Shown: positions 18,601-56,463 of the stretch, piece by piece | How the letters are laid out: each line of letters opens with the position of its first letter | Position numbering within the stretch: the first letter of the stretch is position 1 | Origin: a virus | IMG/VR virus record: IMGVR_UViG_3300044951_001239 | Coordinates: 31,388-95,387 of that record | Reading direction: 5' to 3' (one strand) | Length of the DNA stretch: 64,000 bases | Notes under the pieces: generated by a model | What the model was told of the DNA's origin: nothing | Seen by the model: only the letters and a program-made list of their open reading frames with translations | Databases searched by the model: none | Position numbers and translations under genes: made by a program

Positions 18601-21600
18601 CATTCACCAATGCAGGTGCAGTTTACATGTTTGACTATTTACCATTGTACAGTGAAAATATAAACAACCCTGGTCAATTCGTATATGCTCAAAGTACAAA
18701 TGCCCAAAACTTGAATTATGGTGCTCAACCATATTATGGATCTGCGCTAGATTTCAACAATAATAGAGTTACTATCGGTACACCAAACTTTGTTCCAACT
18801 GGATATGCCAACGATATCTTTGGACAAGTTGTTACTTATGTTAGTACCGCAAGCACTCCGGATTGGGCAGTGTTTAGACAATCTTCACCAATTGTTGATG
18901 TTAATGGTATATTCAACATTCAATTGTTTAGTGCAATGACTAATCAAACATTAGAAAACTTAGATTATATCGATCCTCTACAAGGAAAACTATTGGGGGC
19001 TGTAGCAGAAAATATTGATGTTGTGTCAAATATTGACCCGGCAGCTTATAATTCAGCAGGGTCAACACAAGGTGGAAAAGTTTGGGCAGCAGAGAATGTG
19101 GGTAGACTTTGGTTTAATACATCAAATACTCGTTTTATGAATTATCATCAAAATGATGTTCAATATAACAGCCAGTATTGGGGCAGAGTATTCCCTGGAA
19201 GTAATGTCAGTGTTTATTCTTGGATTGCAAGCCAAGCTATCCCTTCACAGTATGCTGGACCAGGTAACCCGTATGATGTTAATAGTTATTCTATTCGTGG
19301 AATAGTCAATGCAGAAGGATTGATTACACCAATTTATTATTACTGGGTAAGAAATACAAATGTTGTGTTCACATTAATAGGTAAAACATTAGCAGATAGT
19401 ACACTTGAGTCTTATATTTCTCAACCACAACAATCTGGTATCAGTTACTTTGCTCCATTATTACCTAGTGTGTTTGGATTATACAACTGTGCAGCTTATA
19501 TCAATGCAAAAGATACAGTATTGCACATTGGTTATTCAGAAACAACCAACGATGATGTTGCACACAATCAATATAGTTTGATTCGTGATGGATATCCTGA
19601 AGATTTCTTAAGCGGTGTTCCTGGCTCAGGTGCCGCCTTTCAATTTCACGCCGCAGTGGGCATAACAGAACCTATTGGGTTGTACAATAGGATGTTAGAC
19701 AGTATGTGTGGAGTTGATAATGCCGGCGGAGTTGTACCTGATCCATTGTTGCCAAAAGCAGTTCAAACTGGTATATTAGCTAGACCAAGACAAGGTTTCT
19801 TCTATAATAGATTTGGTGCTCTAGAAAATTACTTGCAGTATGCTAACACTGTACTAGCACAGTTCCCTATCATAGAGATAAGAAACCCTAAATTCTTATA
19901 TAGAACAGGGGAATTCTTTGACACCGCTCAGTATTGGAATACTATAAATTGGTGGGCAATTGGATATAACAATAATACCAAATCATCAATACAAGTTCCG
20001 ATATATGCAGATTTATCCACACTAAATGTACCTAATGGCACTATTGTAACAGTGGCATCAAATGCTGCAGGTAATGCAGAGACTTACATTTACTCTGGCT
20101 CCGGCATCTGGACTAGAATTGGGTTAGCTAACGGTACTATTGAATTTAGTAGTAAATTGTGGGACTACGCTGAGGCTATGTTAGGTTTTGGTGATAACTT
20201 CTTTGACACTACGCCGTATGATGAATATCCGTCAGAAGAAACACGATATATAATTCGTTCATTGAATGAGGAAATTTATACTAACGAATTGTTAGTCTTT
20301 AGAAATAAGAGTTTGATATTACTGTTTGAATATATTCAAAGTGAAACTATTGAAAGTCAAAACTATCTAACATGGTTAAACAAAACATCATTTATAGATG
20401 TTTCTCACACTATTCGTGAATTGCTTCCGTTAGAAGTATTCCGTTCTGATAATCAATTGTTCTTGGAAGGTTACTTGAATGAGGTCAAACCATATCATGT
20501 AGTAATCAAAGAATTTATCTTTAAATATACTCGTACGGATATATATGAAGGTGACATAACTGACTTTGATTTGCCGGCTCAGTACAATTCAAGTATAGAA
20601 CAATTTGTTACCCCTGAATTAGTGTATGCTAACGCAAGTGGTGATAATCAATATCTACCTTCAGATCCGATCTGGCAAACTGCTCCGTATAGTCAATGGT
20701 TTGCTAACTATGGTTTAAGTATATCTGGCCAAGATGGATATCAAATATCTGTGCTAGCATCTTATATGGCATTGAATACAACTACGTGTTATGTTGACAA
20801 TGTAAATGGTTTTCCTGTATCAGGTACTATAATTCTCGGTGAAGAAGTTATGAGTTATGCCAGTAGAAATATAGCAACAAACCAATTGACTGGAATTTCA
20901 AGAGGTATACTAGGTTCTACTACAACTGTACATATTCCAGGGGAAGATATCTTTATAAACTTGCCTGCTGTATTAGTACTTAATGAAGGCAGAAATTATG
21001 CAACTCCACCTAGAGTTACTGCACATGTTGATACTTCCATATATCCTGTACCAAGAGTTGTTGCACAATTTGAACCAGTAATGAGTTTGGGAAGTTTGAT
21101 TGGAGTAAATGTAATTAACCCAGGTGAAGGTTATGCTGTTTTGCCTGAGATCATTATTGATCCTGCATTCACTGTTTTAGTAGATAGTACACAGGTAAAT
21201 ATTGTAACTAATACCATTGGTATAACTACTCCTGCATTACAAACAGGTGATTTAGTAATTTATACTGTAGCACCAAATAGCACCCCAATCTCAGGATTGA
21301 CTCCGGGACAACACTATTATGTAAATCTACTGGAGATCACACCGTCCTCGGTGTTTGCACTGTATACTTCATACTTAACTGCGATAAATGATCATGACCG
21401 CGTGATTTTGTCAGCACAGGGTAGCGGAACTCAGCAGTTTAGTGCAGGAGCAATTGCAAGTTGTGTTACTAGTTCAGCACCAACTAGAGAAAACACTATT
21501 GTTCTACGGTTTGATAGAACAAGTTATACTTCTCAGGTAATAAATTGGACACCGTCAGGATTCTATGCCGGGGTAATTGACACCAGCGTACAGGCTTCTT

Positions 21601-24600
21601 CCGCAATAACATTAGAAAGCACTGTCCCACCTATCAGTACTATTTTAGCAAGCGCCGGCGGTGAAAGTTTTGAAATATTGAATACGACAAATCAACAAAC
21701 ATTGACTTGGTCTTCAAGAACAAGAGCTACTATTCAGACGTATGGATCAGCGACATCTTATCCAAATGCAATAAGAATAAATCCTAATATAGGTGGAGCA
21801 CCAGTTGAGGGTAAAATAGGGTCTACTATAGGGTTCTACATTGGCATGCCAGTTAAATTTGTAGGTTCAGTAATTGGCACTACCTTAACTAACAGTGTAA
21901 CTTACTATGTAAAATCATTGATACAATTGCCAAATACTATTACTAGTGTATTAGAAGATACTGGATTCACTATTTCTACTACCGTAGATAACAATGGTAA
22001 CCCTGGAGCAGTACTTGTACAAAATACTGCTTCTATCGTAGCTGCTGGACTTACCTTGTATGTAGGAGAATTGACAAATCTTGCCGTATTGACTATCAAT
22101 TATGCTGGAATTAGAACTGCTACTAACACTGTCGCCGTTACTAATAATATTACTGTTCAATTAACTCCAACTGGATTAGCAGGAACTACCGGATTCTATT
22201 TAGGCACTACGATATTCTTTACTGGTAATGTATTTGGTGGAATAGTTGAGAATGAAAATTATTATGTAATAACTATCATTGACAATCAAACATTCACTAT
22301 GTCAACTGATGCTAATCCTACGACATTTAGTGTAACTGAAACTTTGGCTAGTAATAATTCTATTATATGTGAAAGTGCTACCGGGCTAGCAGCAAATAAT
22401 CCTATAATATTTACTGGAACAACCTTTGGTGGACTAGTTGCAGGTACAACTTATTATGTAAGAGAGATATTTAGTGGTAATACATCATTTTCTATTGCAG
22501 CAACAGTTAACAGTGCTGCAATTATATTAACTAATGACTCAGGGTCATGTACTCTTACAAATCAAATTAATGCAGTTGAGTTAACCACAGGTTCAGGTAG
22601 TATGACATTAAATGTTGGACTACCTATAAGTCCAGGACAGATTGAAGGACAAGCATTTACTTTCTATGAAACGTCCTTACCATATTCTAATGTATCCGGT
22701 ACTGCTTCTAACTTATTGGCAAGAACGATTTCATCAACCCTTGCCACAGTTAATAGAATTTGTTTAGTTGAAAATTTGACAAATATCTACAACAACTTAG
22801 AATTCAATATTGATTCTGACGTAGGTGGACTAACTGTAGCCGGAGAACCATACACGGTTAATGGGTTTGGTACAACTACAGTAACAGTTAGCAGCACTAG
22901 TGGCGGACCCGATTATTGGTTAACATTACCTGTAGCATCTAATCCAAATATCACTGATGCATTATATGTAGGTATGCCAATAGTATTCACCGACCCATCG
23001 TTGGGTGGGATTGAAATTGGTTCAGTATATTATGTTTACTCAATAAATGCCAGTCCACCGGCGGGTACAGGGCAATTTACTATTTCTGCATTTGACACAC
23101 TTTCCCAAATATTTGCATTAACAACTAGTACTGGAATAATGACCGGAATAGGTGATGACTACTTAACTATTAGCGGTGGTTATTCTTTAATAGATTCAGT
23201 TCAACCTGCAACTATAACTAATGCTAGCCCAGCTGTAGTTACAGTGGCTAATGGCGGTGCGTTCCCTGACGGAACAGCTATAACATTTGGTTCATATGGA
23301 ACTTTACCGGTGCCGTTAAACAGTATAACAACATATTATGTTATCAATCTTAGCGGTAATACATTTAATGTATCATATAGCTTAAACGGGGTAGCAATCA
23401 ATACAATTACTGCAGGTTCAGGCACACATAGAGTTGCACAAACCAATGTTACATTGACCCAGCAACCTATTACTGACCCTGTATTTGATGTTAGCTATAT
23501 CCTGGGAGGATATAGAGCTTCTATCATTACACTTGGTAGTGGATATGCGGTAAACAACACTATAACAATACCCGGAACACTAGTGGGAGGAACAACTACT
23601 GCCAATGATTTAGTATTAACTGTTGCAAGTATAAATTCAACCGGTGGCGTTACATCAGCCATTGCAAGCGGAACACCTAATGGAATAGTATCTGATTACT
23701 ACTTAAAAGTATTATCAGAAAATCAAGTAGGTGTTTATAGTGATCCTAACTTGACAGTAGAAGTAAGTGGACAGAACTTCCTGTACACAGGTACTATTTC
23801 AACCGCCGCAACTGCCACTAACTCAAGCACTAATAGAGTTACTGTTACCAGTGCAGCAGAGTTCAACGTTAATGATGCGATTGTGTTTACCGGAACAACT
23901 TTTGGTAATATTGTATTGGGTCAAACTTATTATGTAAAAACAATTGATCCAGGAAATACTTGGGTGACTATTTCTGCATCAACAAGTGGAACTACTTTTG
24001 TGTTAGTTACTAGTTCAGGTACTAATATGACCATGGCCAAGTCAGGTGACTTTGCATTCTTATCAGAGCCATTCTTCTTTAGCCCAACTATTGTAAAATA
24101 CAATAATCAGTTGTATCAATGTATCATAAGTAATAATGATGCTGACTTTTTCTTTAGTAAGTGGGAGTTACTAGTGTCGGGTAATAGGAAATTAAACGCA
24201 TTAGATAGGATCGTTGGTTACTATCAACCCACTGTTAATATGCCCGGGGTTGATTTGACTCAATTGGTGTCAGGCATAACATATCCAAACAGCACTTATA
24301 AGGGTAATGCCTTTGCCCCCGATGATGAATATGAAGTAGACCTTATATTACAAGATCAACCATTCTACCCATCAGGGATTGATTTAAAATCTATTATATG
24401 GAATGGTCTAGTTTATATTGCTGGTTCAGACATCGGGACGTATTCAGCATTTAATGTAAGCGCAGATACTACCTCGTGGACAATCAATCAGTTATCCAAC
24501 CAGACACTATCTATAACTGACTTTATATATGCAGGAGGAAGTTATGTCATTACTACAAATAACAATGCAACCCCTGTATTAACAAGTGATAACGGATATA

Positions 24601-27600
24601 CTTGGAGTAGTAACGAGACAGTTAATGTACTGACCTCTTCATTGAATAGCGTAACATATCAAAACGGGATATATGTTGCGGTAGGGCAAAACATTATAAC
24701 ATCTACTGATTTAAATTCTTGGACTGAACGTTATGCGTTTACTAATGGATTAACTAATGTATTCAATGGGGTAACCTATGCTACCACTACTGGATATACA
24801 GGGTATGTGGCAATTGGTTTGGGACAACAGACAATTGGCTCCAGTGCTGTCAATTTTGCAATCATTTATACAAGTACAGATGCATACACTTGGACACAAG
24901 TTACATTTAATGATACATCTCTGGGATTTAATAGTATTGCATCTAATGGTCAAACAATAGTAGCTGTGGGTGACGGTGGTATAATATACACCAGCTTTAA
25001 CTGTATCACTTGGTTTGCCCAATCTTCAACTATTGCTAGTAAGTTAAACAACATAATTTGGGACAGTTACAACAATAGATTCGTGGTAGTTGGCGAAACC
25101 GGGACAATATTAACCGGTACACTTGACGGTATAACTTGGACGCAACAAACTTCGGGTGTAGCTTCAACATTAGAAAGTGTTGTTTGGAACAATACTGCAC
25201 TTGAATATGTAGTAGTTGGTTTTAATAATACAATTTTAGTTAGTGCTGATGCAACTATATGGGGTAGCTCTGGAACGTTTGTAACTGCTCCGCTGGCGTA
25301 CTCAATTCAAGGAGATGACTTTACACAAGGGTATGGTCCAGAAGAATTAGTACCGGGAGTAATAGCTGATACCATTATGATGACCGTGGCTACTCGTCCT
25401 GGAACAAACTGGGATGAAACAGTTTATCAGCATGTTGGTTACAACACTGTTTCTACTGAAATAACACCAACATCTGCTTCTCAAGATGAATATAGTTTTA
25501 ATAATCTAGTTACAGTTCCTGCTCAACTTGCAGTTTTTGTAATAAATAGAAGTACTAATCTAAGTACTTCGTTGTATCGTGGAATTGACTATACAGTTGA
25601 TTGGGTTAACAAAAATGTAATATTAAATACACCTATAACTTATATTGCACCTGGAAACACAGATCGTTTAAGGATTGATGTTTATGAAGTAGGTAATGGG
25701 GATCAGTTAGTTAACGCTACCTCAGATACTGATGCATTACGACTAAACACAACTACTGGATTTCAAGAAATTTATGTAAATGCAAATTACAGCGCAAGTA
25801 TCTATCAAGGATCAGGGGTAGTCAGACCAGATACTTCCTCGATATCGGTAAATGCAAGTAGTACTTCTAGCTCCACAAACGCAATAACATGCAGTGGTGT
25901 TATTGATTTCGTATTGAATAGTCCAGTATCCTTCACAGGATCAGTCTTTGGTAACATAGTTGAAAATCAAGTTTACTATGTTAAATCAATTAGTAGTACT
26001 ACAAATAGGATTGTAATTTCTGCTACTTACAATGTAAGTACAGGCACTGCAGGTGAAACTTTCTTATTAACAGACTCCACAGGTAGTATGGAAGCTGTAA
26101 TTGCAGTTGGTACAGGATTACCTTGGACACCTCCATCGGTATTTGCAAACGGAAATGCATTAGTATTAGGAACTTATGCGTCAGTTGTACAAACAACTGC
26201 AATTACAAACTCAATCACCACTGTTAGTACAGGTGGATTGATAGTTGATACCCCGGTTGTTTTTAGTTCAACTATGTTTGGTAATGTAACTCCGCATGTG
26301 GTATACTATGTGCATAGTATTATCAGTAGTACTCGCTTTACTATATCAGCGACTCAGGGTGGATCTATATTAGCATTAATTGATGCAGTTGGCGGTGCCA
26401 CATTAGTTTCTAATGATTATGCATTTAGTATTGCTGACAATGGAATTACCGCAGCAATGGTGTTAGCAAGTACATATGATGTTACTACGGATTATTTAAC
26501 TTATACGATTATGGGTGAAACATTGCCTGAGCAGTTTGGATATACACTTCCCCAAGTTCAACTGTTTAGTGGAAATGGGTCAACTGCATTATTTGCTTTA
26601 ACTAACTATGTTAGTGGTAATAATCCAAACAATGCTATTGTAGAAATTAACGGGATTAGACAAACTGCGGCAGCTTATACAATAAGTGCTATCAGCAATA
26701 CGATATTGTTCAATAGTCCTCCTGCGGTAGATTCTACGATAGCAGTTACAACTTACAACCAAACTCAGCGTCAGTATTTAAATACTCAATACGATATCAC
26801 AGGGTCTGGTGAGGCGGTGGCAAGTATCACGGTTAGTGACACTACACACTTGTTAAGTGGATTTGATCAAGATACACCCACAGTGGCAACATTTGATCAA
26901 GATACCCCCACAGTAGTATTGTTTGACCAAGAACTAAACTATTTGACATTAGCATCTGGCACAACTAGTCAATTGATTATCAACAGCGCAATAGTGTTTC
27001 AGAATGTAATCGGTGGCATAATAGCTGGACAAACTTACTTTATTACAGAAATATTGAATTCTACTGACTTTGTTATCTCAACTCAAGTTGGTGGTTTACC
27101 GTTTGAAGTTACAACTGACAGTGGAGCAATGACTAGTGTGGTCAGTGGATTAACGGTAGCTGCTATTGTTGGAATTGATAATTCTCTTAGTGCGCCATTA
27201 GTAATTAATGTGTCTGGTACGGTAGCTGCTGATAATTCAGTAACATGCAATGATACTACGAGTTTAGTAGTAGGGCAAGATATAATATTCAAAGCTATAG
27301 TAGTTACAGTTGCCGGAGTGTTAATTAGCGGTGATGAATATGAAATTATTACATTAGGTGATACTACTCAATTACAGTGGAATACTGCTGCAGGAACAGT
27401 AGGTGTTGATTATTTAGTAGGTAGTGTATTTACCGCAGTTTCTACTGGTGGCGGGGTAGGTACTGGTACAGTGTTGCTTTCAAACTTAGGAGGAATTAGT
27501 ACACTAGGTCAAGTTTACTTTGTCCGAGCAATAATAGATTTAACACATTTTACAATACAAGATCAAGGTGGTAACATAATTGTTCTTACTGATACTTCAG

Positions 27601-29129
27601 GCTATAACTTATTTGCGTACATTGGTGGACTTGTTGCGGTTAGAGTGATTACTCAAATAAATAATAACTTTACAGAAAATCAATTGATTAGCATCGACGG
27701 CGTGGGTGGATCAATCCAGTTAAATAATAACACATATTATGTAAAAATAATAAGTGATATTGAATTTGATTTGTATAATCAGCCATATAACCCTGCATAT
27801 GCAGCAGTTAATTATCCAGTTACGCTGCCATCAGCTTATACTTCTGGCGGATATGCTTGGTTAGATCAATTATTCACTATCGTGGATACGGTTGCAACTC
27901 GTACTACTGCAAACGGTAATAGAATTACTGTTGGTAGCACTGATATTATAGTGCCAAATACTCCAGTATTATTTACTACATATGGCGCAAGTATAGGTGA
28001 CAACATATTAGGTGGAATATTAGCAAAAACTCAGTACTATGTGTTTGAAGTAAGACCTACTATCTTAGCAGGAAACTTTATTGTTGGAAATAGTTATCAG
28101 ATTGTTACGTTAGGCACCACTGATTGGAATACTGCTGCTGGAACAGTAGCGGTAGCATATGCAGTAGATGACATATTTACCGCAGCCAATATAGCGAGTG
28201 GAACAGGTCTTGCTTCTGGATTGCAAGAATTCACTATTGCGTTAACCAGATATCCAAATCAAGCGCAAGAGGGATTGACTGATGCGACAGGATCAGTCAA
28301 TGTAACTGAATTTGAACAAGTTAATGTTGACAGATTATGGGTAACAGTTAATGGTTACAGAGTTCCATCAAGCTCATTGAGATTGAATCCTTTCAATAAT
28401 TTGAGTATTTTGACAACTATCCAGACTGGTGATCAAGTTATTATTACTAGCATGATGCCAACGGCAACACCAAATGAAGAAGTTTACTTGTTGTATGTAT
28501 CAACTTCAAATGAACCTACCGTTTACAGAGTAAATTCTGAGTCCAGAACATGGTTGACTCATTCTCTCCAGTTTACTGACACTACTATATATGTAAATGA
28601 CATAACCCGTGTGACAGATACTGTTATACAAAATGTAGTATGTCCGGCAGCAGTAGATGGTAAATATAATATTGGATTGACTGCTAATAAAAATGCAATA
28701 TGTCTTGTTGAGGTTTACAATGTAACAACCGTAACTACAGTAAATCCTACAAACTATCAAATAATTATCGTAGATGCTGCTCCAGTATTACAAATTTCTA
28801 GTCAGGTTACTGTTGGTGACTCGTTAATAATTACTTTAGTTGTAGGACAATTGATCTACCTTAACGGTGAGCAAATTGCATTCGCAGAATGCGACTTGGC
28901 CAACAATACACTTGGTCAATTGACCAGAGGTGCTAACGGAACTGGAGTTAGAGATTATACCCCAATATATGCTGAAGTGTACGGACTCATGCCTGATAAT
29001 GTAATGCCAGACTTGTTATATTCAGAAGTTTGGAATCCTATCCCAGGTGTTTATGACCCGATTGAAGGTGATCCGTTACAGATAGCTTATAGTCAAGGTG
29101 CAACTTTCTTAAGAACGAATACAAACTAA
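9693..29129 (+). CDS. Giant (6478 aa) modular baseplate/tail virion protein with beta-propellers and ~15 repeated beta modules
   Basis: Uninterrupted 19.4-kb ORF after gp6. 'YLNEVKPYHVVI' is a wedge-like motif. FG-GAP-like blades at ~16750-18850, second propeller at ~24380-25270. Confidence 0.8.
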   Translation: MATRIRTLDFLPEIFKTTTNAQFLAATLDQLVAQPNTKKIQGYIGSKFGYGINAKDRYVIEPTKSRTDYQLDPGIIFLKENNSTAKDFISYPGIIDALTLEGGLTADNNRLFNNQFYSWDSFTNLDTIINFNQYYWLPEGPERVIVASNIVYSSANFVVQPEANSYLISSETLVNPSANPTLTLLRGGQYTFTVNQNTQFWIQGEPGVTGLSPTQRNVQTRDVYGVINNGITNGVVTFNVPQKNAQDDFIFPGDNTVGVVSTLPFDQVNGALVNEIGGIDGVTALDGLTVMFYNTGDTNEEVTSTFYTISLSGDIDDPLIQLTATAAIPTNQKITVSYGVEWTNRNFYRSSIGVITLEPYNSAILDKLYYQDGTIPGRVGVINLIENNVLNQINVETDILGKINYTSTNGVIFTNGLKVLFQGDIYPESFNNVEFYVEGVGTAIELIPVSTLVSPGLFSAAAYIPFDTTPFDIGNYDSSLYIPIYPDYITIARNAINRNPWSRSNRWFHIDVINATAEYNNTPELVTEYTQLGNKAKRPIIEFYPNLKLFNSGAVGKNPIDFIDTKTTDAFTYVAGQTIYYPDTAGYTTATATIAPITGAITKTATATLPLINQVVLDSTTGIHINDTITFTGTAFGGLSTDPTNNANRYYILDIVNSTNVVISATKQGTSVIVTTGTGTMSAAVYPYSTTITMPSTDVFGLFTAGQYITDSTGLLPSITFVSTISVVGSNTVITVSWYNQSIVAGTSVASVVTADTPLDNYALFDGSRVVFAVDSDSNVRNKIYVSRFSTIQPGSIPVITLTEATEGLVLLDEQTAVYRGYNYSGKDFFFDGVDWIEGQQKSQLNQPPKFDIYDGNDISFGDHAVYVGTSFSGCTLFSYGIGSGSNDTVLGFPLSYSSVNNVGDISFDVTLNSDTFTYVQGLNSITEYVNKGYVYNYSITPGIEPVIVRQLGWQTAVSPSVQYQIFEFDYDVLTNTNNTFICDIAPILTTPTQWPMIQVYVNNIYVPNTEWQVLGPVSDTSTTINIPVIPTTNTVVQILILSDQVSSTAYFQTPINLTNNPFNTSVTTANIGDIRGQYQSIFFNNPNTTGVVFGSNNYRDLGNLVPWGNRIIQNSASLVLPGTFLRNQDHNLFNSLLYNSRQYITFKTLLVDTVNNSDYSRILTPSQMLDDALGQINAPKVESQSFFWSDMLPSKAPYITNTYNFANTLDISVYPLSHIYNFATANYNGILVYLTRDNVQTQLIRGIEYTVSTDSPSLTVTLSLDVNDQITVKEFNQTYGSYVPNTPTKLGLYPATIPSVTLDTAYSPATYFIVGHDGSFNKLYGSYDSPTSTLVDFRDQVLLEYEIRVYNNLKLSETVPAGSYQSVIIPGFFRTTDYSTDEFLQIYSELFLNWVGQNRIDYKTQFYNTNNQFTYNYRDSGNQLNNQPIEQGNFRGAYLFFYDTSTPNETPWQMLGLANQPTWWTSRYGPAPYTSDNLVLWGDLETGTVWNDGTPFIKPSYARPNLSKIIPVDSNGDLLSPFDSLVGNYDQYLFQRDWIVGDVGPAEFSYRRSSTWPFDLMHILAVTKPTEFFNLGVEVDTYKYNVEFNQYLVNDRSHLVISDIPIYGTGTPATSYINWIVDYEKQLGVDATANISTLLDNLDVRLVYRAAGFSDKNLLKFFVEKSSANSNNSSLLIPDESYGLLLYENQPFDRIIYSGVVIQITENGYKVFGNSQTNAYFKTLTPKFGGTIQTITVETLTVKVTDRFTDTIQVIPYGTEFYNTQQVAQFLISYGEFLISQGVVYEEIENGIPIQWQQMVAEFLYWAQTGWDLGSITTINPSANLITINKESRIVQPLTLSQKNFLLNQDLYPISTSNLNITREGTAFAAKTLNVGDAISYGQFNISNIENGIVFDNVTLFNDVIYNLVTGLRQYRISVNGSLTADWTGNVDAAGFILNQDNVKEWDNTLKYTAGAIVQYKNKYWSALRIIQPSILFRELDWKETTYDQIQKGLLPNNQTRSYESTLYYDVNNANLENDADLLSFSLIGYRPRDYLALVDLTDVTQVNVYKNLIKNKGTLNAASAFKGANLPQGGIDYTLYQNWAIKSGEFGGILNNNFIEFRLDQPELVGNPSIVGLTSGVFIDGVQQQVPLYSVFNYGRPITTVDILPTISDLQLSSLYPTAGYVNLNDVKMASYFYSGLPTAQNAAGTTVPISQFYVRDYVWVANYLSTWQVYTPASLGSVINAKNNLNNTVTITFSQAHNLKRYESFAIVNFNVAIDNYYIVAAVVDPFNVIINLSLNPQIKNINSQGVGFRLQSQRVATAPEIGTLPLLDNEFNKLKVWVDTNNDGSWAVYRKSLNYQFDTEIVNPASETFGSAVAYASSFGYLLGDSETGEVYRYKYNALNNSYISYQTITQTTSFGANISYVNNLFVISQPTGTPKVYVYQYIDTQALNTLELYQLIAAPGGVTTWGTSTALSGDQNWLYVSDIDNNSVYAYRRAAYEVTAGNFVSANTYTITSLGTTDFTLIGASSNAVGTIFVASGGGTGTGTATNSTYELAHLIDGDALGLTSAGDNFGYSISTDYYGDTVVIGTPQQDYDVNTQNYGYTYVFSRTVQNFESQSANQAYVPVAIPVAWTPITVTQTATATTASTDRITVSSSTGFTVGDPVVFSGTIISAGALALNAVYYVLAKPTSTTFTISTTRNGSAVQLVDDTGSMTVTVQTSPLFVTVNGTSLEDNYYAVIGSTLNIYSGATPTLNAGDIVNISGSNFVLAQTLTNEETPRVGVQFGLSTDTNTFANEILVGAPFELSAENYEGAVHRYTNSGERYGTIIGTTACNITTPRTVLLNGYRVVLPIGNATSAVANINLLGLTNIQASEVNDNLVISLINVDLAIAGNKLSLTVLDSATLGEMGVELYQQTQKVTSPHVQGRTQFGTVVKFDKSNSGSFIASAPVGTRYASTTFDFFDDEIDNDTVFDNNATQWVDTFTNAGAVYMFDYLPLYSENINNPGQFVYAQSTNAQNLNYGAQPYYGSALDFNNNRVTIGTPNFVPTGYANDIFGQVVTYVSTASTPDWAVFRQSSPIVDVNGIFNIQLFSAMTNQTLENLDYIDPLQGKLLGAVAENIDVVSNIDPAAYNSAGSTQGGKVWAAENVGRLWFNTSNTRFMNYHQNDVQYNSQYWGRVFPGSNVSVYSWIASQAIPSQYAGPGNPYDVNSYSIRGIVNAEGLITPIYYYWVRNTNVVFTLIGKTLADSTLESYISQPQQSGISYFAPLLPSVFGLYNCAAYINAKDTVLHIGYSETTNDDVAHNQYSLIRDGYPEDFLSGVPGSGAAFQFHAAVGITEPIGLYNRMLDSMCGVDNAGGVVPDPLLPKAVQTGILARPRQGFFYNRFGALENYLQYANTVLAQFPIIEIRNPKFLYRTGEFFDTAQYWNTINWWAIGYNNNTKSSIQVPIYADLSTLNVPNGTIVTVASNAAGNAETYIYSGSGIWTRIGLANGTIEFSSKLWDYAEAMLGFGDNFFDTTPYDEYPSEETRYIIRSLNEEIYTNELLVFRNKSLILLFEYIQSETIESQNYLTWLNKTSFIDVSHTIRELLPLEVFRSDNQLFLEGYLNEVKPYHVVIKEFIFKYTRTDIYEGDITDFDLPAQYNSSIEQFVTPELVYANASGDNQYLPSDPIWQTAPYSQWFANYGLSISGQDGYQISVLASYMALNTTTCYVDNVNGFPVSGTIILGEEVMSYASRNIATNQLTGISRGILGSTTTVHIPGEDIFINLPAVLVLNEGRNYATPPRVTAHVDTSIYPVPRVVAQFEPVMSLGSLIGVNVINPGEGYAVLPEIIIDPAFTVLVDSTQVNIVTNTIGITTPALQTGDLVIYTVAPNSTPISGLTPGQHYYVNLLEITPSSVFALYTSYLTAINDHDRVILSAQGSGTQQFSAGAIASCVTSSAPTRENTIVLRFDRTSYTSQVINWTPSGFYAGVIDTSVQASSAITLESTVPPISTILASAGGESFEILNTTNQQTLTWSSRTRATIQTYGSATSYPNAIRINPNIGGAPVEGKIGSTIGFYIGMPVKFVGSVIGTTLTNSVTYYVKSLIQLPNTITSVLEDTGFTISTTVDNNGNPGAVLVQNTASIVAAGLTLYVGELTNLAVLTINYAGIRTATNTVAVTNNITVQLTPTGLAGTTGFYLGTTIFFTGNVFGGIVENENYYVITIIDNQTFTMSTDANPTTFSVTETLASNNSIICESATGLAANNPIIFTGTTFGGLVAGTTYYVREIFSGNTSFSIAATVNSAAIILTNDSGSCTLTNQINAVELTTGSGSMTLNVGLPISPGQIEGQAFTFYETSLPYSNVSGTASNLLARTISSTLATVNRICLVENLTNIYNNLEFNIDSDVGGLTVAGEPYTVNGFGTTTVTVSSTSGGPDYWLTLPVASNPNITDALYVGMPIVFTDPSLGGIEIGSVYYVYSINASPPAGTGQFTISAFDTLSQIFALTTSTGIMTGIGDDYLTISGGYSLIDSVQPATITNASPAVVTVANGGAFPDGTAITFGSYGTLPVPLNSITTYYVINLSGNTFNVSYSLNGVAINTITAGSGTHRVAQTNVTLTQQPITDPVFDVSYILGGYRASIITLGSGYAVNNTITIPGTLVGGTTTANDLVLTVASINSTGGVTSAIASGTPNGIVSDYYLKVLSENQVGVYSDPNLTVEVSGQNFLYTGTISTAATATNSSTNRVTVTSAAEFNVNDAIVFTGTTFGNIVLGQTYYVKTIDPGNTWVTISASTSGTTFVLVTSSGTNMTMAKSGDFAFLSEPFFFSPTIVKYNNQLYQCIISNNDADFFFSKWELLVSGNRKLNALDRIVGYYQPTVNMPGVDLTQLVSGITYPNSTYKGNAFAPDDEYEVDLILQDQPFYPSGIDLKSIIWNGLVYIAGSDIGTYSAFNVSADTTSWTINQLSNQTLSITDFIYAGGSYVITTNNNATPVLTSDNGYTWSSNETVNVLTSSLNSVTYQNGIYVAVGQNIITSTDLNSWTERYAFTNGLTNVFNGVTYATTTGYTGYVAIGLGQQTIGSSAVNFAIIYTSTDAYTWTQVTFNDTSLGFNSIASNGQTIVAVGDGGIIYTSFNCITWFAQSSTIASKLNNIIWDSYNNRFVVVGETGTILTGTLDGITWTQQTSGVASTLESVVWNNTALEYVVVGFNNTILVSADATIWGSSGTFVTAPLAYSIQGDDFTQGYGPEELVPGVIADTIMMTVATRPGTNWDETVYQHVGYNTVSTEITPTSASQDEYSFNNLVTVPAQLAVFVINRSTNLSTSLYRGIDYTVDWVNKNVILNTPITYIAPGNTDRLRIDVYEVGNGDQLVNATSDTDALRLNTTTGFQEIYVNANYSASIYQGSGVVRPDTSSISVNASSTSSSTNAITCSGVIDFVLNSPVSFTGSVFGNIVENQVYYVKSISSTTNRIVISATYNVSTGTAGETFLLTDSTGSMEAVIAVGTGLPWTPPSVFANGNALVLGTYASVVQTTAITNSITTVSTGGLIVDTPVVFSSTMFGNVTPHVVYYVHSIISSTRFTISATQGGSILALIDAVGGATLVSNDYAFSIADNGITAAMVLASTYDVTTDYLTYTIMGETLPEQFGYTLPQVQLFSGNGSTALFALTNYVSGNNPNNAIVEINGIRQTAAAYTISAISNTILFNSPPAVDSTIAVTTYNQTQRQYLNTQYDITGSGEAVASITVSDTTHLLSGFDQDTPTVATFDQDTPTVVLFDQELNYLTLASGTTSQLIINSAIVFQNVIGGIIAGQTYFITEILNSTDFVISTQVGGLPFEVTTDSGAMTSVVSGLTVAAIVGIDNSLSAPLVINVSGTVAADNSVTCNDTTSLVVGQDIIFKAIVVTVAGVLISGDEYEIITLGDTTQLQWNTAAGTVGVDYLVGSVFTAVSTGGGVGTGTVLLSNLGGISTLGQVYFVRAIIDLTHFTIQDQGGNIIVLTDTSGYNLFAYIGGLVAVRVITQINNNFTENQLISIDGVGGSIQLNNNTYYVKIISDIEFDLYNQPYNPAYAAVNYPVTLPSAYTSGGYAWLDQLFTIVDTVATRTTANGNRITVGSTDIIVPNTPVLFTTYGASIGDNILGGILAKTQYYVFEVRPTILAGNFIVGNSYQIVTLGTTDWNTAAGTVAVAYAVDDIFTAANIASGTGLASGLQEFTIALTRYPNQAQEGLTDATGSVNVTEFEQVNVDRLWVTVNGYRVPSSSLRLNPFNNLSILTTIQTGDQVIITSMMPTATPNEEVYLLYVSTSNEPTVYRVNSESRTWLTHSLQFTDTTIYVNDITRVTDTVIQNVVCPAAVDGKYNIGLTANKNAICLVEVYNVTTVTTVNPTNYQIIIVDAAPVLQISSQVTVGDSLIITLVVGQLIYLNGEQIAFAECDLANNTLGQLTRGANGTGVRDYTPIYAEVYGLMPDNVMPDLLYSEVWNPIPGVYDPIEGDPLQIAYSQGATFLRTNTN
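26861..26933 (+). repeat. 30-bp tandem repeat (FDQDTPTVAT / FDQDTPTVVL / FDQE)
   Basis: tttgatcaagatac... at 26862 and 26892, partial third copy at 26922. Confidence 0.85.
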
Positions 29130-54093: not shown

Positions 54094-54276
54094 ATGAAGC
54101 CGAAATTTATAGATTCTGATGAGGAATATATCCAAGTGTTATACGAGTTAAATCAACTTGATGATGAGGACGACTGGGAGCTATATCAACAACAGGAGAA
54201 AAATAGTATTGATAATCAGATAGATACTGAAACATACCTGAGGTATACAGGAAAAAAAGAAAGAATATGTCCTTAG
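54094..54276 (+). CDS. Small acidic hypothetical protein
   Basis: 60-aa ORF; weak support. Confidence 0.4.
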   Translation: MKPKFIDSDEEYIQVLYELNQLDDEDDWELYQQQEKNSIDNQIDTETYLRYTGKKERICP

Positions 54277-54309
54277 TGGATTTAGTAGCAGCAGACTTAA
54301 ATTAAGTAT

Positions 54310-54652
54310 GTTGTGAAAAGAGATGATTGTATGAAGTAGATAGAAACGGATTCTGGACGGGGATGCAAATTCCCCCGGGTCCACCAGTAAGTATGCTAGT
54401 TTGGATAGGTGCAGGGCAACCCATGTAATACCCGCCCTGCATATGGGTGAATCCTAGTATACTTTCTAATGGGCCTGAATAGTTTCGACAGGGTCAAGAG
54501 TATTGAAATGGACAGTCCGGCAATGTAGAAGCCGTTATGATTGAGGTAACTCAGCCAAAGACACAAAAAAAGTAAAAGCAAACGACTCACAGTTTAGCAT
54601 TGCGGCCTGATAAAGGCAGCTAGGGGAGTTATCCCTCGTAACAGAAAATAGC
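54310..54652 (+). ncRNA. ssrA: Circularly permuted (two-piece) tmRNA; tag (A)ANDSQFSIAA
   Basis: T-arm GGGGA-TGCAAAT-TCCCC and CGGGTCC-A-CCA end at 54386, upstream of the 5' segment GGGCCTG-AATAGTTTCGAC at 54471. The acceptor stem has the G3:U alanine pair. Tag frame gca aac gac tca cag ttt agc att gcg gcc tga taa at 54578-54613. Outer ends approximate. Confidence 0.9.
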
Positions 54653-54677
54653 AAAAAGGCTCTTTGGAGCCTTTTTT
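54653..54677 (+). terminator. Rho-independent terminator after tmRNA
   Basis: AAAAAGGCTC-TTTG-GAGCCTTTTTT. Confidence 0.85.
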
Positions 54678-54814
54678 ACCCAATAAACTTACTTATTGCG
54701 TAAGTAGTGTGTATACTTTACAGCATGAACTATTTTATTTGAACAGTATCTTGTTCACTAAATATTAGTCTGGCCTGAAGAAACAGGTTTATATTATAAA
54801 GGAAATTAAATTAA

Positions 54815-55366
54815 ATGAAGAAAATTATAGCAATCTTGGCTCTTGCCACTTTCGGCACAGCTTTTGCCGCTGATTATGTATCTGTTGACGTTGATAGCGT
54901 TACCGGTCTTAAAGGAGCAAGTAACAGCACAGCACAATATGTTCGTGCCGGTAAAAGTCTTGGTAACTACCAATTTGGGGTACAGTCTCGTACTGCAAAC
55001 TTCAAGGGCGGTGGTTTGGTAAACAGCACAGAAGTAACCGCTGCTAATAACAAAGTTAGCTTTGCTGGTATTGCACCCTTCGTTGGGGTTGGACATGACA
55101 ATGGATTCAACGGTGCTAAGGGCTCTGCTTACACATACGGTTTAGTTGGCGCTACAGCCGGTATGAAAGTTGGCCCGGGTTTTGCACTAGTTGGGGTTAA
55201 GGCTCGCGTTGGCAGTGATGAGCAAACTCGCACTAATCAGACCGTTGCATTTGCAACTTACAGCATTCCAGTTAGTAAGAATGTTTCTGTTAACTTGAAC
55301 GCAAGTAAGAGCTACAAAGACATTCGTGAAAATGCTTTAGGCTTAGGGCTATCATTCAACTTCTAA
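54815..55366 (+). CDS. Small outer-membrane beta-barrel (porin-like) protein
   Basis: Signal peptide (..GTAFA), alternating beta strands, C-terminal 'LGLGLSFNF' BAM-type motif; AAGGA SD. Confidence 0.7.
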   Translation: MKKIIAILALATFGTAFAADYVSVDVDSVTGLKGASNSTAQYVRAGKSLGNYQFGVQSRTANFKGGGLVNSTEVTAANNKVSFAGIAPFVGVGHDNGFNGAKGSAYTYGLVGATAGMKVGPGFALVGVKARVGSDEQTRTNQTVAFATYSIPVSKNVSVNLNASKSYKDIRENALGLGLSFNF

Positions 55367-55467: not shown

Positions 55468-56463
55468 ATGAAAAAATTATTAGCTATTTTATTATCAGTT
55501 GTTGCATTAAATGCAACAGCACAAGAAATTACAGGAGCCGGAGCAACATTTCCGGCTCCGTTATATTCAAAGTGGGCAAGCGAGTATAGCAAGAGTACCA
55601 ATGTCAAAATCAACTATCAATCAGTTGGTTCAGGAGCCGGCCTCAAGCAGATTGAAGCCAAGACAGTTACATTTGGTGCAAGTGATATGCCACTTACAGA
55701 TGACAAGCTAAAGGAATTGGGCTTGTTCCAGTTCCCCACAGTAATAGGCGGGGTTGTTCCAGTAATCAACCTTAAGGGCATTGAACCAGGACAAATGAAA
55801 TTAACAGGTGCATTAATTGCTGATATCTTCTTAGGCAAGATTACCAAGTGGGATGATAGTGCTATCAAAGCATTGAACCCAACATTACCTTTACCTAATC
55901 AAGCTATCACTGTAGTTCGCAGAGCAGATGGGTCTGGTACAACTTTCATCTGGACTAACTATCTAAGCAAAGTAAGCAAAGAGTTTAAAGAAACTATTGG
56001 CGAAGGCACTGCTGTTAATTGGAAAGTAGGAGCAGGCGGAAAAGGTAATGAAGGTGTTGCTGCTATGGTCAGACTACTTCCAGGTACATTGGGATATGTT
56101 GAGTTTGCGTATGTTAAACAAACTAAAATGAATTGGGTCAATGTACAAAATAGTGCTGGTACTTGGGTATCACCAACTGAAGAAGCATTCAGAGCCGCAG
56201 CAGCAAACGCTGATTGGAACAAGAGTTACTATCAAATACTAACTAATCAAGCAGGCAAAGACGCATGGCCTATCAGTGGAGCAACTTTTATACTGGTATA
56301 TTTAAAACCCGAAGATGCAGCTAAATCTAAAACTGCTATTGCTTTCTTTGACTGGGTATTTACTAGTGGTGATCGGGCAGCAGATGACCTAGATTATGTT
56401 GCATTGCCACTAGCAGTGAAAAACAAGATTCGTGCAGACTGGAAACGGTTGTCACTACACTAA
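55468..56463 (+). CDS. pstS: Phosphate ABC transporter substrate-binding protein PstS
   Basis: 'ITGAGATFPAPLYSKW', 'NYQSVGSGAG', 'FGASDMPL', 'RRADGSGTT', 'GKGNEGV', 'WPISGATF'; signal peptide. Confidence 0.95.
   Translation: MKKLLAILLSVVALNATAQEITGAGATFPAPLYSKWASEYSKSTNVKINYQSVGSGAGLKQIEAKTVTFGASDMPLTDDKLKELGLFQFPTVIGGVVPVINLKGIEPGQMKLTGALIADIFLGKITKWDDSAIKALNPTLPLPNQAITVVRRADGSGTTFIWTNYLSKVSKEFKETIGEGTAVNWKVGAGGKGNEGVAAMVRLLPGTLGYVEFAYVKQTKMNWVNVQNSAGTWVSPTEEAFRAAAANADWNKSYYQILTNQAGKDAWPISGATFILVYLKPEDAAKSKTAIAFFDWVFTSGDRAADDLDYVALPLAVKNKIRADWKRLSLH

What the first reader, a model, noticed from the sequence alone, without database searches (positions are those of the whole stretch)
54310..54677. 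Phage-encoded circularly permuted, two-piece tmRNA
Seen: the CCA-ending acceptor piece precedes the 5' coding piece. The acceptor stem GGGCCUG/CGGGUCC has G3:U, helix CAGGGUC/GAUUCUG links the pieces, the T-loop is non-canonical (UGCAAAU), and the tag is ANDSQFSIAA followed by a terminator. The 84-nt intervening segment is itself structured (AAGTATGCTAG/CTAGTATACTT enclosing TGCAGGGC/GCCCTGCA). Established: permuted tmRNAs occur in alphaproteobacteria, some cyanobacteria and a betaproteobacterial lineage, and tags ending AA direct ClpXP degradation. Inference: the phage supplies its own ribosome rescue, perhaps resisting host anti-phage RNases; it may be a host-derived or an independent permutation.
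Basis: partly seen in the sequence, partly recalled or inferred. Interest (0 to 1): 0.75.

Follow-up and report, generated by a model that had tools for sequence, protein, structure and literature searches.

The report
Two-piece tmRNA gene in jumbo phage
The giant-phage fragment does carry a complete, back-to-front (two-piece) gene for tmRNA, the RNA that frees stalled ribosomes. Such genes are already known in phages and turn up in well over a hundred related phage contigs, so this is a sound but fairly ordinary find.

Summary
Observation confirmed. Rfam's permuted-tmRNA model RF04321 hits window 54325-54610 (+) at 91 bits (cut-off 47, E 3e-16). This includes the acceptor stem with G3:U, the encoded CCA, the UGCAAAU T-loop, the 84-nt hairpin spacer, the tag ANDSQFSIAA and the terminator.

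The betaproteobacterial model RF01850 aligns over its full length (75.6 bits, below its cut-off of 84). This is therefore the known beta-type layout, not an independent permutation.

The contig is a ~27%-complete, Rak2-like T4-type jumbo phage. More than 100 IMG/VR contigs carry relatives, many with near-identical tags such as ANDSQFALAA. A cultured Stenotrophomonas phage has an annotated beta-type ssrA, although bacteria of its host's family carry one-piece tmRNA.

Three points hold across the relatives:
- The "odd" T-loop always goes with a compensating D-loop change.
- The spacer's closing stem is conserved (69 of 72 distinct spacers).
- Several relatives have a strong promoter where the window keeps only a decayed one.

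No SmpB was found here or in two near-complete relatives, so the RNA presumably uses host factors. The link to anti-phage RNases has no support.

Phage two-piece tmRNAs are already published (PMC9004378), and this scan has met them many times on other DNA. Verdict: new member of a known kind.

The parts
54307..54312 (+). Decayed -10-like hexamer TATGTT. It aligns with the TATAAT of the TTGACA-17-TATAAT promoters that sit directly upstream of the gene in relatives. The -35 position is not conserved in the window.
   Evidence: Upstream regions compared. The sigma-70 scan finds no + strand promoter here. RF01850 aligns its promoter columns to 54269-54320.
54320..54386 (+). Acceptor piece, about 67 nt. 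It holds the P2c strand GAUUGU (54325-30), the P2a strand GAUUCUG (54349-55), the T arm GGGGA-UGCAAAU-UCCCC (54359-75), the acceptor 3' strand CGGGUCC (54376-82), and discriminator A plus encoded CCA (54383-86). The 5' end is inferred.
   Evidence: RF04321 alignment; co-fold; sequence.
54387..54470 (+). Intervening spacer of 84 nt. An 11-bp closing stem encloses a 9-bp inner stem, and a 4-nt single-stranded leader UAAU sits just before G1. It is presumed to be excised and holds no credible gene.
   Evidence: Fold at -28.8 kcal/mol, z -2.68. In the family, 69 of 72 distinct spacers have a closing stem against 52 of 360 shuffles, and 56 of 72 end in UGAU.
54471..54517 (+). 5' part of the coding piece. 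It holds the acceptor 5' strand GGGCCUG (G3 at 54473), the D-loop analogue AAUAGUUUCGA with AG in place of the usual GG, the P2a strand CAGGGUC (54489-95) and the P2c strand ACAGUC (54512-17).
   Evidence: P2a is fully paired in 59 of 107 relatives across 47 distinct sequence combinations, and in 0 after shifting one strand.
54518..54553 (+). Hairpin at the PK1 position, CGGC-N9-GCCG (54518-34), followed by a subgroup-specific extra hairpin UGAG-GUAA-CUCA (54542-53). A true pseudoknot was not established.
   Evidence: Both Rfam models pair CGGC here. The stem covaries in relatives (CGGU/ACCG, CAUC/GAUG, CGAC/GUCG, CGUC/GACG). The extra hairpin also covaries in L084, L102, L092, L004, L027 and L045.
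54578..54613 (+). Tag reading frame: resume codon GCA at 54578, ANDSQFSIAA, then UGA (54608-10) and UAA (54611-13).
   Evidence: Sequence and RF04321/RF01850 alignment to the consensus GCAAACGA. Relatives encode ANDSQFALAA, ANDSQFRIAA, ANDSRFALAA and similar tags behind the same GUAAA(A/C) motif. ARAGORN picks the 10-residue tag in L102, a relative with the same insertion.
54622..54677 (+). 3' trailer: a small hairpin AGGGGA...UCCCU (54622-36) and an intrinsic terminator GGCUC-UUUG-GAGCC plus U6 (54658-77). A preceding A-tract makes the terminator bidirectional.
   Evidence: Sequence; the scan reports the same palindrome on the - strand; RF01850 aligns its terminator hairpin here; an 88%-identical copy lies in L084.

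Best explanation
This is an intact beta-type, circularly permuted ssrA gene carried by an uncultured Rak2-like (T4-type) jumbo phage.

Proposed mechanism:
1. One transcript runs from about 54320 to the terminator at 54677.
2. The stem-closed 84-nt spacer is removed. RNase P cuts before G54471. An endonuclease plus 3' trimming exposes the encoded CCA at 54386.
3. This leaves a ~67-nt acceptor piece and a ~207-nt coding piece, held together by the acceptor stem and the long P2 helix.
4. Host AlaRS charges the RNA through the G3:U pair, and host SmpB and EF-Tu deliver it to ribosomes stalled on broken mRNAs.
5. Translation resumes at GCA 54578 and adds (A)ANDSQFSIAA, which marks the peptide for ClpXP-type proteolysis and frees the ribosome.

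The likely benefit to the phage is to keep ribosome rescue going during a long infection, when host transcription of ssrA has stopped and mRNA is being cut.

Shown here: gene anatomy, family membership, covariation of the helices, and conservation in many phages.
Inferred: processing, charging, use of host SmpB, tagging, and the benefit to the phage.
For: - RF04321 scores 91 bits against a gathering score of 47. RF01850 aligns full length.
- An unconstrained co-fold of the two pieces rebuilds the tRNA-like domain.
- G3:U, discriminator A and an encoded CCA are present.
- 118 of 120 viral contigs found only by GGAC-N5-TGCAAAT-N10-CCACCA have perfect, covarying 5-bp T stems. 107 of 121 have a matching GGG... 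acceptor strand downstream, which means they are permuted.
- P2a and the PK1-position hairpin covary.
- Tags in relatives are near-identical, for example ANDSQFALAA in at least nine.
- The T-loop UGC is always paired with D-loop AG (172 of 172), and UUC with GG (32 of 32). The unusual loop is therefore a compensated, functional variant. It is also found in one-piece tmRNAs of Elusimicrobiota, Acidobacteriota, Patescibacteria and Clostridia.
- Relatives have their own TTGACA-17-TATAAT promoters.
- The locus is partly syntenic: a 183-residue signal-peptide gene, pstS, or AAA/VWA genes lie downstream in relatives.
- The contig is phage: baseplate genes and a wedge protein ~33% identical to Rak2-like jumbo phages.
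- tmRNAs in huge phages and two-piece tmRNAs in phages are published (PMC7162821, PMC9004378).
Against: - There are no expression, processing, charging or tagging data.
- The window's copy is among the most diverged. RF01850 scores 75.6, below its gathering score of 84, and ARAGORN misses it.
- Its promoter is a decayed version of the relatives' promoter.
- The acceptor stem carries a second wobble pair (U6:G).
- The tag ends SIAA rather than the usual ALAA.
- A ~22-nt hairpin is inserted before the resume codon. An in-frame, stop-free upstream stretch would allow an 18-residue reading.
- No SmpB gene is on the 95-kb fragment, which is only ~27% of the genome.
- The host is unknown, so compatibility with its SmpB and AlaRS cannot be checked.
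Confidence: 0.8

Rival explanations
1. The RNA is made and charged, but it serves the phage by competing with the host's own tmRNA. It would re-tag stalled products with a differently recognised tag (...SIAA), or titrate host SmpB, and so change which proteins are degraded or how the host senses stalled ribosomes. Supplying extra rescue capacity would not be its main role.
For: - A phage lineage of permuted tmRNA is kept even where the host family has one-piece tmRNA. The Stenotrophomonas phage carries a beta-type gene, while 29 of 31 genomes of the Lysobacter-containing family carry the standard form.
- No SmpB is found in two ~100%-complete relatives, so host SmpB must be shared.
- PMC9004378 proposes selective tagging of host proteins.
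Against: - The tag keeps the proteobacterial AND...AA pattern and the terminal Ala-Ala, so it looks like an ordinary degradation tag.
- Nothing in the sequence distinguishes competition from simple supplementation.
Confidence: 0.1
2. The window's copy is a decaying or poorly expressed gene that this particular phage no longer uses.
For: - The promoter is degenerate compared with relatives.
- RF01850 scores below its gathering threshold.
- ARAGORN misses it.
- It has an extra wobble pair in the acceptor stem and an atypical SIAA tag end.
Against: - Every helix of the tRNA-like domain is intact.
- The tag frame is open and has a double stop.
- The terminator is perfect.
- The features that lower the score (extra hairpin, long spacer) are shared and covary in a subgroup of relatives: L084, L102 and L092.
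- Read-through from the upstream genes could supply transcription.
Confidence: 0.08
3. It is not a phage gene at all. It would be a bacterial ssrA on a mis-classified contig, or the ssrA fragment that temperate elements carry at their attachment site.
For: Many integrative elements target ssrA and carry its 3' end (PMC4383910).
Against: - The gene is complete, not a 3' fragment.
- It lies between phage genes on a 95-kb contig that has baseplate and tail genes.
- Its nearest relatives are all viral contigs.
- Only 2 of 121 genomes sampled from the bacterial order that holds the beta lineage carry such a gene, and those copies are far more distant.
Confidence: 0.02

Closest known systems
Betaproteobacterial two-piece tmRNA (Rfam RF01850 beta_tmRNA; lineage of Sharkady and Williams 2004, as cited in PMC9004378)
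   Same: - Same gene order: promoter, acceptor piece, spacer, coding piece, tag, small hairpin, terminator.
- The full-length model aligns (positions 1-331).
- Same P2 helices and a single hairpin at the PK1 position.
- Tag of the AND...AA type. The two bacterial examples fetched read ANDERFALAA and ANDENFALAA.
   Different: - Scores 75.6 bits, below the family cut-off of 84.
- T-loop UGCAAAU with D-loop AG, where the bacterial genes have UUCGAUU or UUCAAUU with GG.
- Longer, stem-closed spacer (84 nt against about 30-45).
- Extra hairpin before the tag.
- Carried by a phage. Sequence similarity to the best bacterial example is low (32 bits by nhmmer).
Annotated ssrA of cultured Stenotrophomonas T4-like phages (Menderavirus, e.g. 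vB_SmaM_Bhz51, OR797040.1)
   Same: - Phage-borne beta-type permuted tmRNA (RF01850 92 bits, RF04321 118.5 bits).
- Stem-closed spacer ending UGAU.
- AND... tag ending IAA.
- Its acceptor piece is ~80% identical to that of the window's relative L117.
   Different: - Canonical UUCGAUU T-loop with GG in the D-loop.
- Sits in a tRNA cluster.
- 12-residue tag.
- 160-kb phage with a known host.
Two-piece ssrA of OM43 phage Melnitz and marine pelagimyophages (PMC9004378)
   Same: - Complete two-piece tmRNA in a lytic T4-like aquatic phage.
- The type is not necessarily that of the host.
- That paper counted 53 two-piece forms among 133 unique phage tmRNAs, mostly in marine or aquatic phages.
   Different: - Melnitz's gene is reported as alphaproteobacterial-type and as controlled by a glutamine riboswitch.
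- The window's gene is beta-type, and Rfam finds no riboswitch in the window.
Standard one-piece tmRNA (RF00023)
   Same: - tRNA-like domain, Ala identity, resume codon and degradation tag.
- The UGCAAAU/AG elbow variant also occurs in one-piece tmRNAs of several phyla.
   Different: - Gene order is permuted and PK2-PK4 are absent.
- RF00023 gives no hit on the contig.

Membership tests
tmRNA (any form) | tRNA-Ala-like acceptor stem with G3:U, discriminator A and a CCA end | tested here: met
   GGGCCUG (54471-77) pairs with CGGGUCC (54376-82). G54473:U54380 is the G3:U pair, and ACCA lies at 54383-86.
tmRNA (any form) | T arm plus a D-loop analogue that forms the tRNA elbow | tested here: met
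   5-bp T stem with a 7-nt loop. The loop UGC goes with D-loop AG in 172 of 172 sequences, and UUC goes with GG in 32 of 32.
tmRNA (any form) | Short tag frame that starts with an Ala codon behind an A-rich leader and ends Ala-Ala-stop | tested here: met
   GCA at 54578, ANDSQFSIAA, then UGA UAA. The tag is homologous to tags in relatives.
tmRNA (any form) | Pseudoknot PK1 upstream of the resume codon | tested here: inconclusive
   A covarying 4-bp hairpin sits at the PK1 position. No second pseudoknot stem could be identified by eye, and pseudoknots are not modelled by the CMs used.
tmRNA (any form) | Alanylation, SmpB binding and trans-translation activity | not testable with these tools
No SmpB gene was found on the fragment or in two near-complete relatives.
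Permuted tmRNA (RF04321) | Score above the gathering threshold, with the acceptor 3' half placed upstream of the 5' half | tested here: met
   91 bits against 47, model positions 1-213, E 3.2e-16.
Permuted tmRNA (RF04321) | Processing of one precursor into two base-paired pieces | not testable with these tools
   Inferred from the encoded CCA, the RNase P-type junction and the conserved stem-closed spacer.
Beta-type permuted tmRNA (RF01850) | Score above the curated gathering threshold (84 bits) | tested here: not met
   75.6 bits. The alignment is full length, and the score is lost at two insertions. Close viral relatives reach 102-127 bits. I therefore describe the gene as beta-type in architecture, not as a curated family member.
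Beta-type permuted tmRNA (RF01850) | It is the best-scoring of the three lineage-specific models | tested here: met
   RF01850 is the clan member kept after competition with the alpha, cyano, tRNA and tmRNA models.

The most novel reading that the evidence does not exclude
T4-like and jumbo phages maintain their own long-lived lineage of beta-type and alpha-type permuted tmRNAs that moves between phages regardless of the host's tmRNA form. Many members carry a compensated elbow (D-loop A with T-loop G in place of G with pseudouridine). In this reading, the altered elbow would make the phage RNA independent of host T-loop modification, or invisible to a host factor that recognises the canonical elbow.
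Probability: 0.12. Interest if true: 0.5.

Novelty: new member of a known kind. Interest (0 to 1): 0.27.

Why it matters
- It adds a diverged, ARAGORN-invisible example to the known set of phage two-piece tmRNAs. ARAGORN-only annotation, as used in PMC7162821 and PMC9004378, therefore under-counts them. RF04321 finds this one.
- The family-level by-products may be of more use than the single gene. The strict D-loop/T-loop covariation shows that UGCAAAU is a working elbow variant. The conserved stem-closed spacer with a UGAU leader points to a defined processing route.
- A cultured Stenotrophomonas phage carries a beta-type gene while bacteria of its host's family have one-piece tmRNA. This shows that the phage genes are not simply copies of the current host's ssrA.
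- None of this changes how trans-translation is understood.

Tried and rejected
- ARAGORN, default and at 80% threshold: no true call. The low-threshold calls fall in glycine-rich coding sequence and are spurious.
- blastn of the gene against 50,697 phage records: no match. Exact-pattern search for the window's own T arm and acceptor strand in IMG/VR: none. Relatives appeared only after the stems were made degenerate.
- RF00023 and SmpB (PF01668) on the 95-kb record: none.
- Sigma-70 scan: no + strand promoter.
- Independent permutation: rejected because the beta model aligns end to end.
- 18-residue tag starting at GCC 54554 (AKDTKKVK...): considered, because it is in frame and starts 83 nt from G1, the usual distance in relatives. 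Rejected as the primary reading because that GCC lies inside the subgroup-specific insertion. The conserved GUAAA(A/C)-GCAAACGA motif marks 54578.
- A gene in the spacer: only an 11-codon ATG frame with no ribosome-binding site, so rejected.
- Naming the host: not achieved. The proteobacterial-type tag and 37% GC are only hints.
- Literature search for a described UGC/AG elbow variant in tmRNA: nothing relevant found. 'phage-encoded tmRNA' as a phrase: no papers. Sharkady and Williams 2004 is not held.
- The GIY-YIG assignment of the ORF inserted in L084 is weak (E 0.03, below the cut-off).

Full report
**What is there**

Window 54320-54677 (+) is a complete circularly permuted tmRNA gene. Rfam's tmRNA_permuted model (RF04321) matches 54325-54610 at 91 bits. 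Its gathering score is 47, and E is 3.2e-16 over the whole 64-kb window. It is the only family above threshold in the window. Read from the sequence and the CM alignments, the order is as follows:
- A decayed promoter (-10-like TATGTT, 54307-12).
- The acceptor piece, with P2 strands, T arm GGGGA-UGCAAAU-UCCCC, acceptor 3' strand CGGGUCC, and ACCA ending at 54386.
- An 84-nt spacer (54387-54470).
- The coding piece, starting at G54471. It holds the acceptor 5' strand GGGCCUG with G3:U, the D-loop analogue, the P2 return strands, a hairpin at the PK1 position, an extra small hairpin, and an A-rich leader.
- The resume codon GCA at 54578, the tag ANDSQFSIAA, then UGA and UAA.
- A small 3' hairpin and an intrinsic terminator ending at 54677.

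An unconstrained co-fold of the two presumed pieces rebuilds the acceptor stem, the T arm and three segments of P2 (-40 kcal/mol).

**Where it sits**

The window is the last 64 kb of a 95-kb IMG/VR virus record that CheckV rates about 27% complete.
- It encodes baseplate hub and wedge proteins.
- The wedge protein is about 33% identical over its full length to those of Rak2-like jumbo phages of 345-470 kb: GAP32, RaK2, CBB, Serratia BF and Sinorhizobium Phosso.
- Neighbours of the tmRNA gene include a PstS-type phosphate-binding protein, an AAA/VWA pair and a homing-endonuclease-like gene.
- No tRNA, standard tmRNA or SmpB gene is on the 95 kb. With three quarters of the genome missing, this says little.

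**Which kind of permuted tmRNA**

Among the lineage-specific models, the betaproteobacterial one (RF01850) wins the clan competition. It aligns over its whole length, including its promoter and terminator columns (positions 1-331, window 54269-54678). It scores 75.6 bits, under its cut-off of 84. The score is lost mainly at the long spacer and at a ~22-nt insertion before the tag.

Two bacterial beta-lineage genes were fetched from a sample of 121 genomes of one GTDB order; only 2 of the 121 carry the form. They show the same layout, with tags ANDERFALAA and ANDENFALAA and canonical T-loops.

The permutation is therefore the known beta-type one, not an independent event. By the curated threshold, however, the window's gene is not a formal RF01850 member, so I call it beta-type in architecture.

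**Relatives**

Exact and blastn searches found nothing.
- 118 of these 120 hits have perfect 5-bp T stems of many different sequences.
- 107 of 121 (the 120 plus the window) have a matching GGG... acceptor strand with G3:U downstream. They are therefore permuted genes, with spacers of 5-327 nt.
- nhmmer with the window's gene recovers 74 of them over nearly the full length. The best are L084 (128 bits), L092 (117) and L102 (105). No bacterial locus from the same pattern search is recovered.
- The best bacterial beta-lineage gene scores only 32 bits.
- Rfam subtypes the viral set into beta-type (L058 127 bits, L117 122, L007 122, L011 120) and alpha-type (L005, L048, L070).
- Tags in the beta-type relatives are near-identical to the window's: ANDSQFALAA in at least nine, plus ANDSQFRIAA, ANDSRFALAA and ANDEKFALAA.
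- The P2a helix is fully paired in 59 of 107 relatives with 47 distinct strand combinations, and in none after a 3-nt shift.
- The PK1-position hairpin and the subgroup-specific extra hairpin also covary.
- The locus is partly syntenic. The 183-residue signal-peptide gene just downstream in the window also follows the tmRNA gene in five relatives. pstS follows it in one, and the AAA/VWA pair follows it in L084.

**The 'non-canonical' T-loop**

UGCAAAU is not a defect. In the bacterial genome collection the same pattern occurs mainly in ordinary one-piece tmRNAs of Elusimicrobiota, Acidobacteriota, Patescibacteria, Clostridia and others. The few permuted examples lie on short MAG contigs that look like binned phage DNA; one MAG has three of them.

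Across 213 tmRNA genes in hand, T-loop UGC always goes with AG in the D-loop analogue (172 of 172). UUC always goes with GG (32 of 32). By analogy with the tRNA G18:pseudouridine-55 contact, this is a compensated tertiary pair. That interpretation is my inference, and I found no paper describing it.

One caution applies. My viral set was selected for UGCAAAU, so it does not show how common the variant is among phage tmRNAs. The cultured Stenotrophomonas phage has the canonical pair.

**The spacer**

Spacer sequences are not conserved even between close relatives, but their architecture is.
- 69 of 72 distinct spacers of 40 nt or more have a closing stem joining their first and last nucleotides, against 52 of 360 shuffles.
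- 56 of 72 end with a single-stranded UGAU just before G1. The window has UAAU.

This fits a processing route in which a double-strand-specific or other endonuclease and RNase P release the two pieces; that route is inferred. Earlier reports of this scan describe the same stem-closed spacer as a slot that sometimes holds small genes or homing endonucleases. The window's spacer is empty.

**Expression**

Several relatives have a textbook TTGACA-17-TATAAT promoter ending about 7 nt before the acceptor piece (L117, L011, L013, L040, L025). The window aligns to it but keeps only TATGTT and no -35. The window's gene may therefore rely on read-through or on a weak promoter. This is the main reason to keep a 'decaying copy' rival alive.

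**Partners and host**

Two relatives rated 99-100% complete (190 kb and 166 kb) carry the tmRNA gene but no SmpB. These RNAs presumably use host SmpB, AlaRS and EF-Tu (inference).

The host of the window's phage is unknown. The AND...AA tag is of the proteobacterial type (my knowledge), and the contig's GC is 37%.

The cultured Stenotrophomonas phage vB_SmaM_Bhz51 has an annotated ssrA that is a beta-type permuted gene: RF01850 92 bits, above its cut-off, and RF04321 118.5 bits.
- In the GTDB family that contains a Lysobacter MAG, 29 of 31 sampled genomes have the standard one-piece tmRNA.
- None of the 31 has a true permuted one. The single RF04321 hit overlaps that genome's standard gene.
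- From my knowledge of GTDB, this family also holds Stenotrophomonas. The tool does not name it.

Phage tmRNA type therefore need not match the host's, as PMC9004378 already argued for phage Melnitz.

**Comparison with the literature, and novelty**

- The three bacterial permuted lineages and the merged model RF04321 are described in PMC11915505. That paper lists 79 unique bacteriophage tmRNA sequences.
- tmRNAs and SmpB in huge phages are reported in PMC7162821.
- PMC9004378 describes a two-piece ssrA in phage Melnitz and counts 53 two-piece forms among 133 unique phage tmRNAs, mostly in aquatic phages.
- GenBank already annotates ssrA in Menderavirus phages.
- This scan has noted phage permuted tmRNAs on many other genomes.

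The finding is therefore a correct identification of a new, rather diverged member of a known kind.

**Verdict**

- Real gene: about 0.95.
- Functional trans-translation RNA using host factors: about 0.8.
- Interest: low to moderate (0.27).

Noticed in passing
213 tmRNA genes from loci L002-L279 and the window (D-loop analogue 54478-54488, T-loop 54364-54370): Strict covariation between the T-loop and the D-loop analogue. UGC goes with AG (172 of 172) and UUC with GG (32 of 32), across both one-piece and permuted tmRNAs of many phyla and phages. I did not find this described in the papers I searched.
   Followed up: partly
L084:3080-3725 (closest relative of the window's tmRNA): A 161-residue ORF on the opposite strand lies directly after the tmRNA gene. 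It has a weak GIY-YIG match (E 0.03, below the cut-off). After it comes a second copy of the tmRNA 3' trailer and terminator, 88% identical to window 54620-54677. It looks like a homing-endonuclease cassette that displaced the gene's original 3' end.
   Followed up: partly
L047 and L056 (spacer of 327 nt); L005, L015, L017, L035, L055 (spacers of 158-174 nt): Some relatives have very long stem-closed spacers that could hold small genes. Other reports of this scan found genes in such spacers. I did not examine these.
   Followed up: no
window 9693-29129 (+): A single open reading frame of 6478 codons follows the baseplate wedge gene. It is presumably a giant fibre or decoration protein.
   Followed up: no
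window 54815-55366 (+): A 183-residue protein with a Gram-negative-type signal peptide and no Pfam or PHROG match. It follows the tmRNA gene here and in five related contigs (L021, L023, L025, L076, L117; 51-54% identity).
   Followed up: partly
window 55468-56463 (+): A PstS-type periplasmic phosphate-binding protein (PBP_like_2, E 3e-38), a typical aquatic-phage auxiliary gene. A 52%-identical copy lies next to the tmRNA gene in L040.
   Followed up: partly
G004 contigs C175, C126, C13 (loci L243, L246, L248); G003 C229 (L244): One Flavobacteriales MAG holds three different permuted tmRNA genes on separate short contigs, and a Rubritalea MAG holds one. These are most likely phage contigs binned into bacterial MAGs.
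   Followed up: partly
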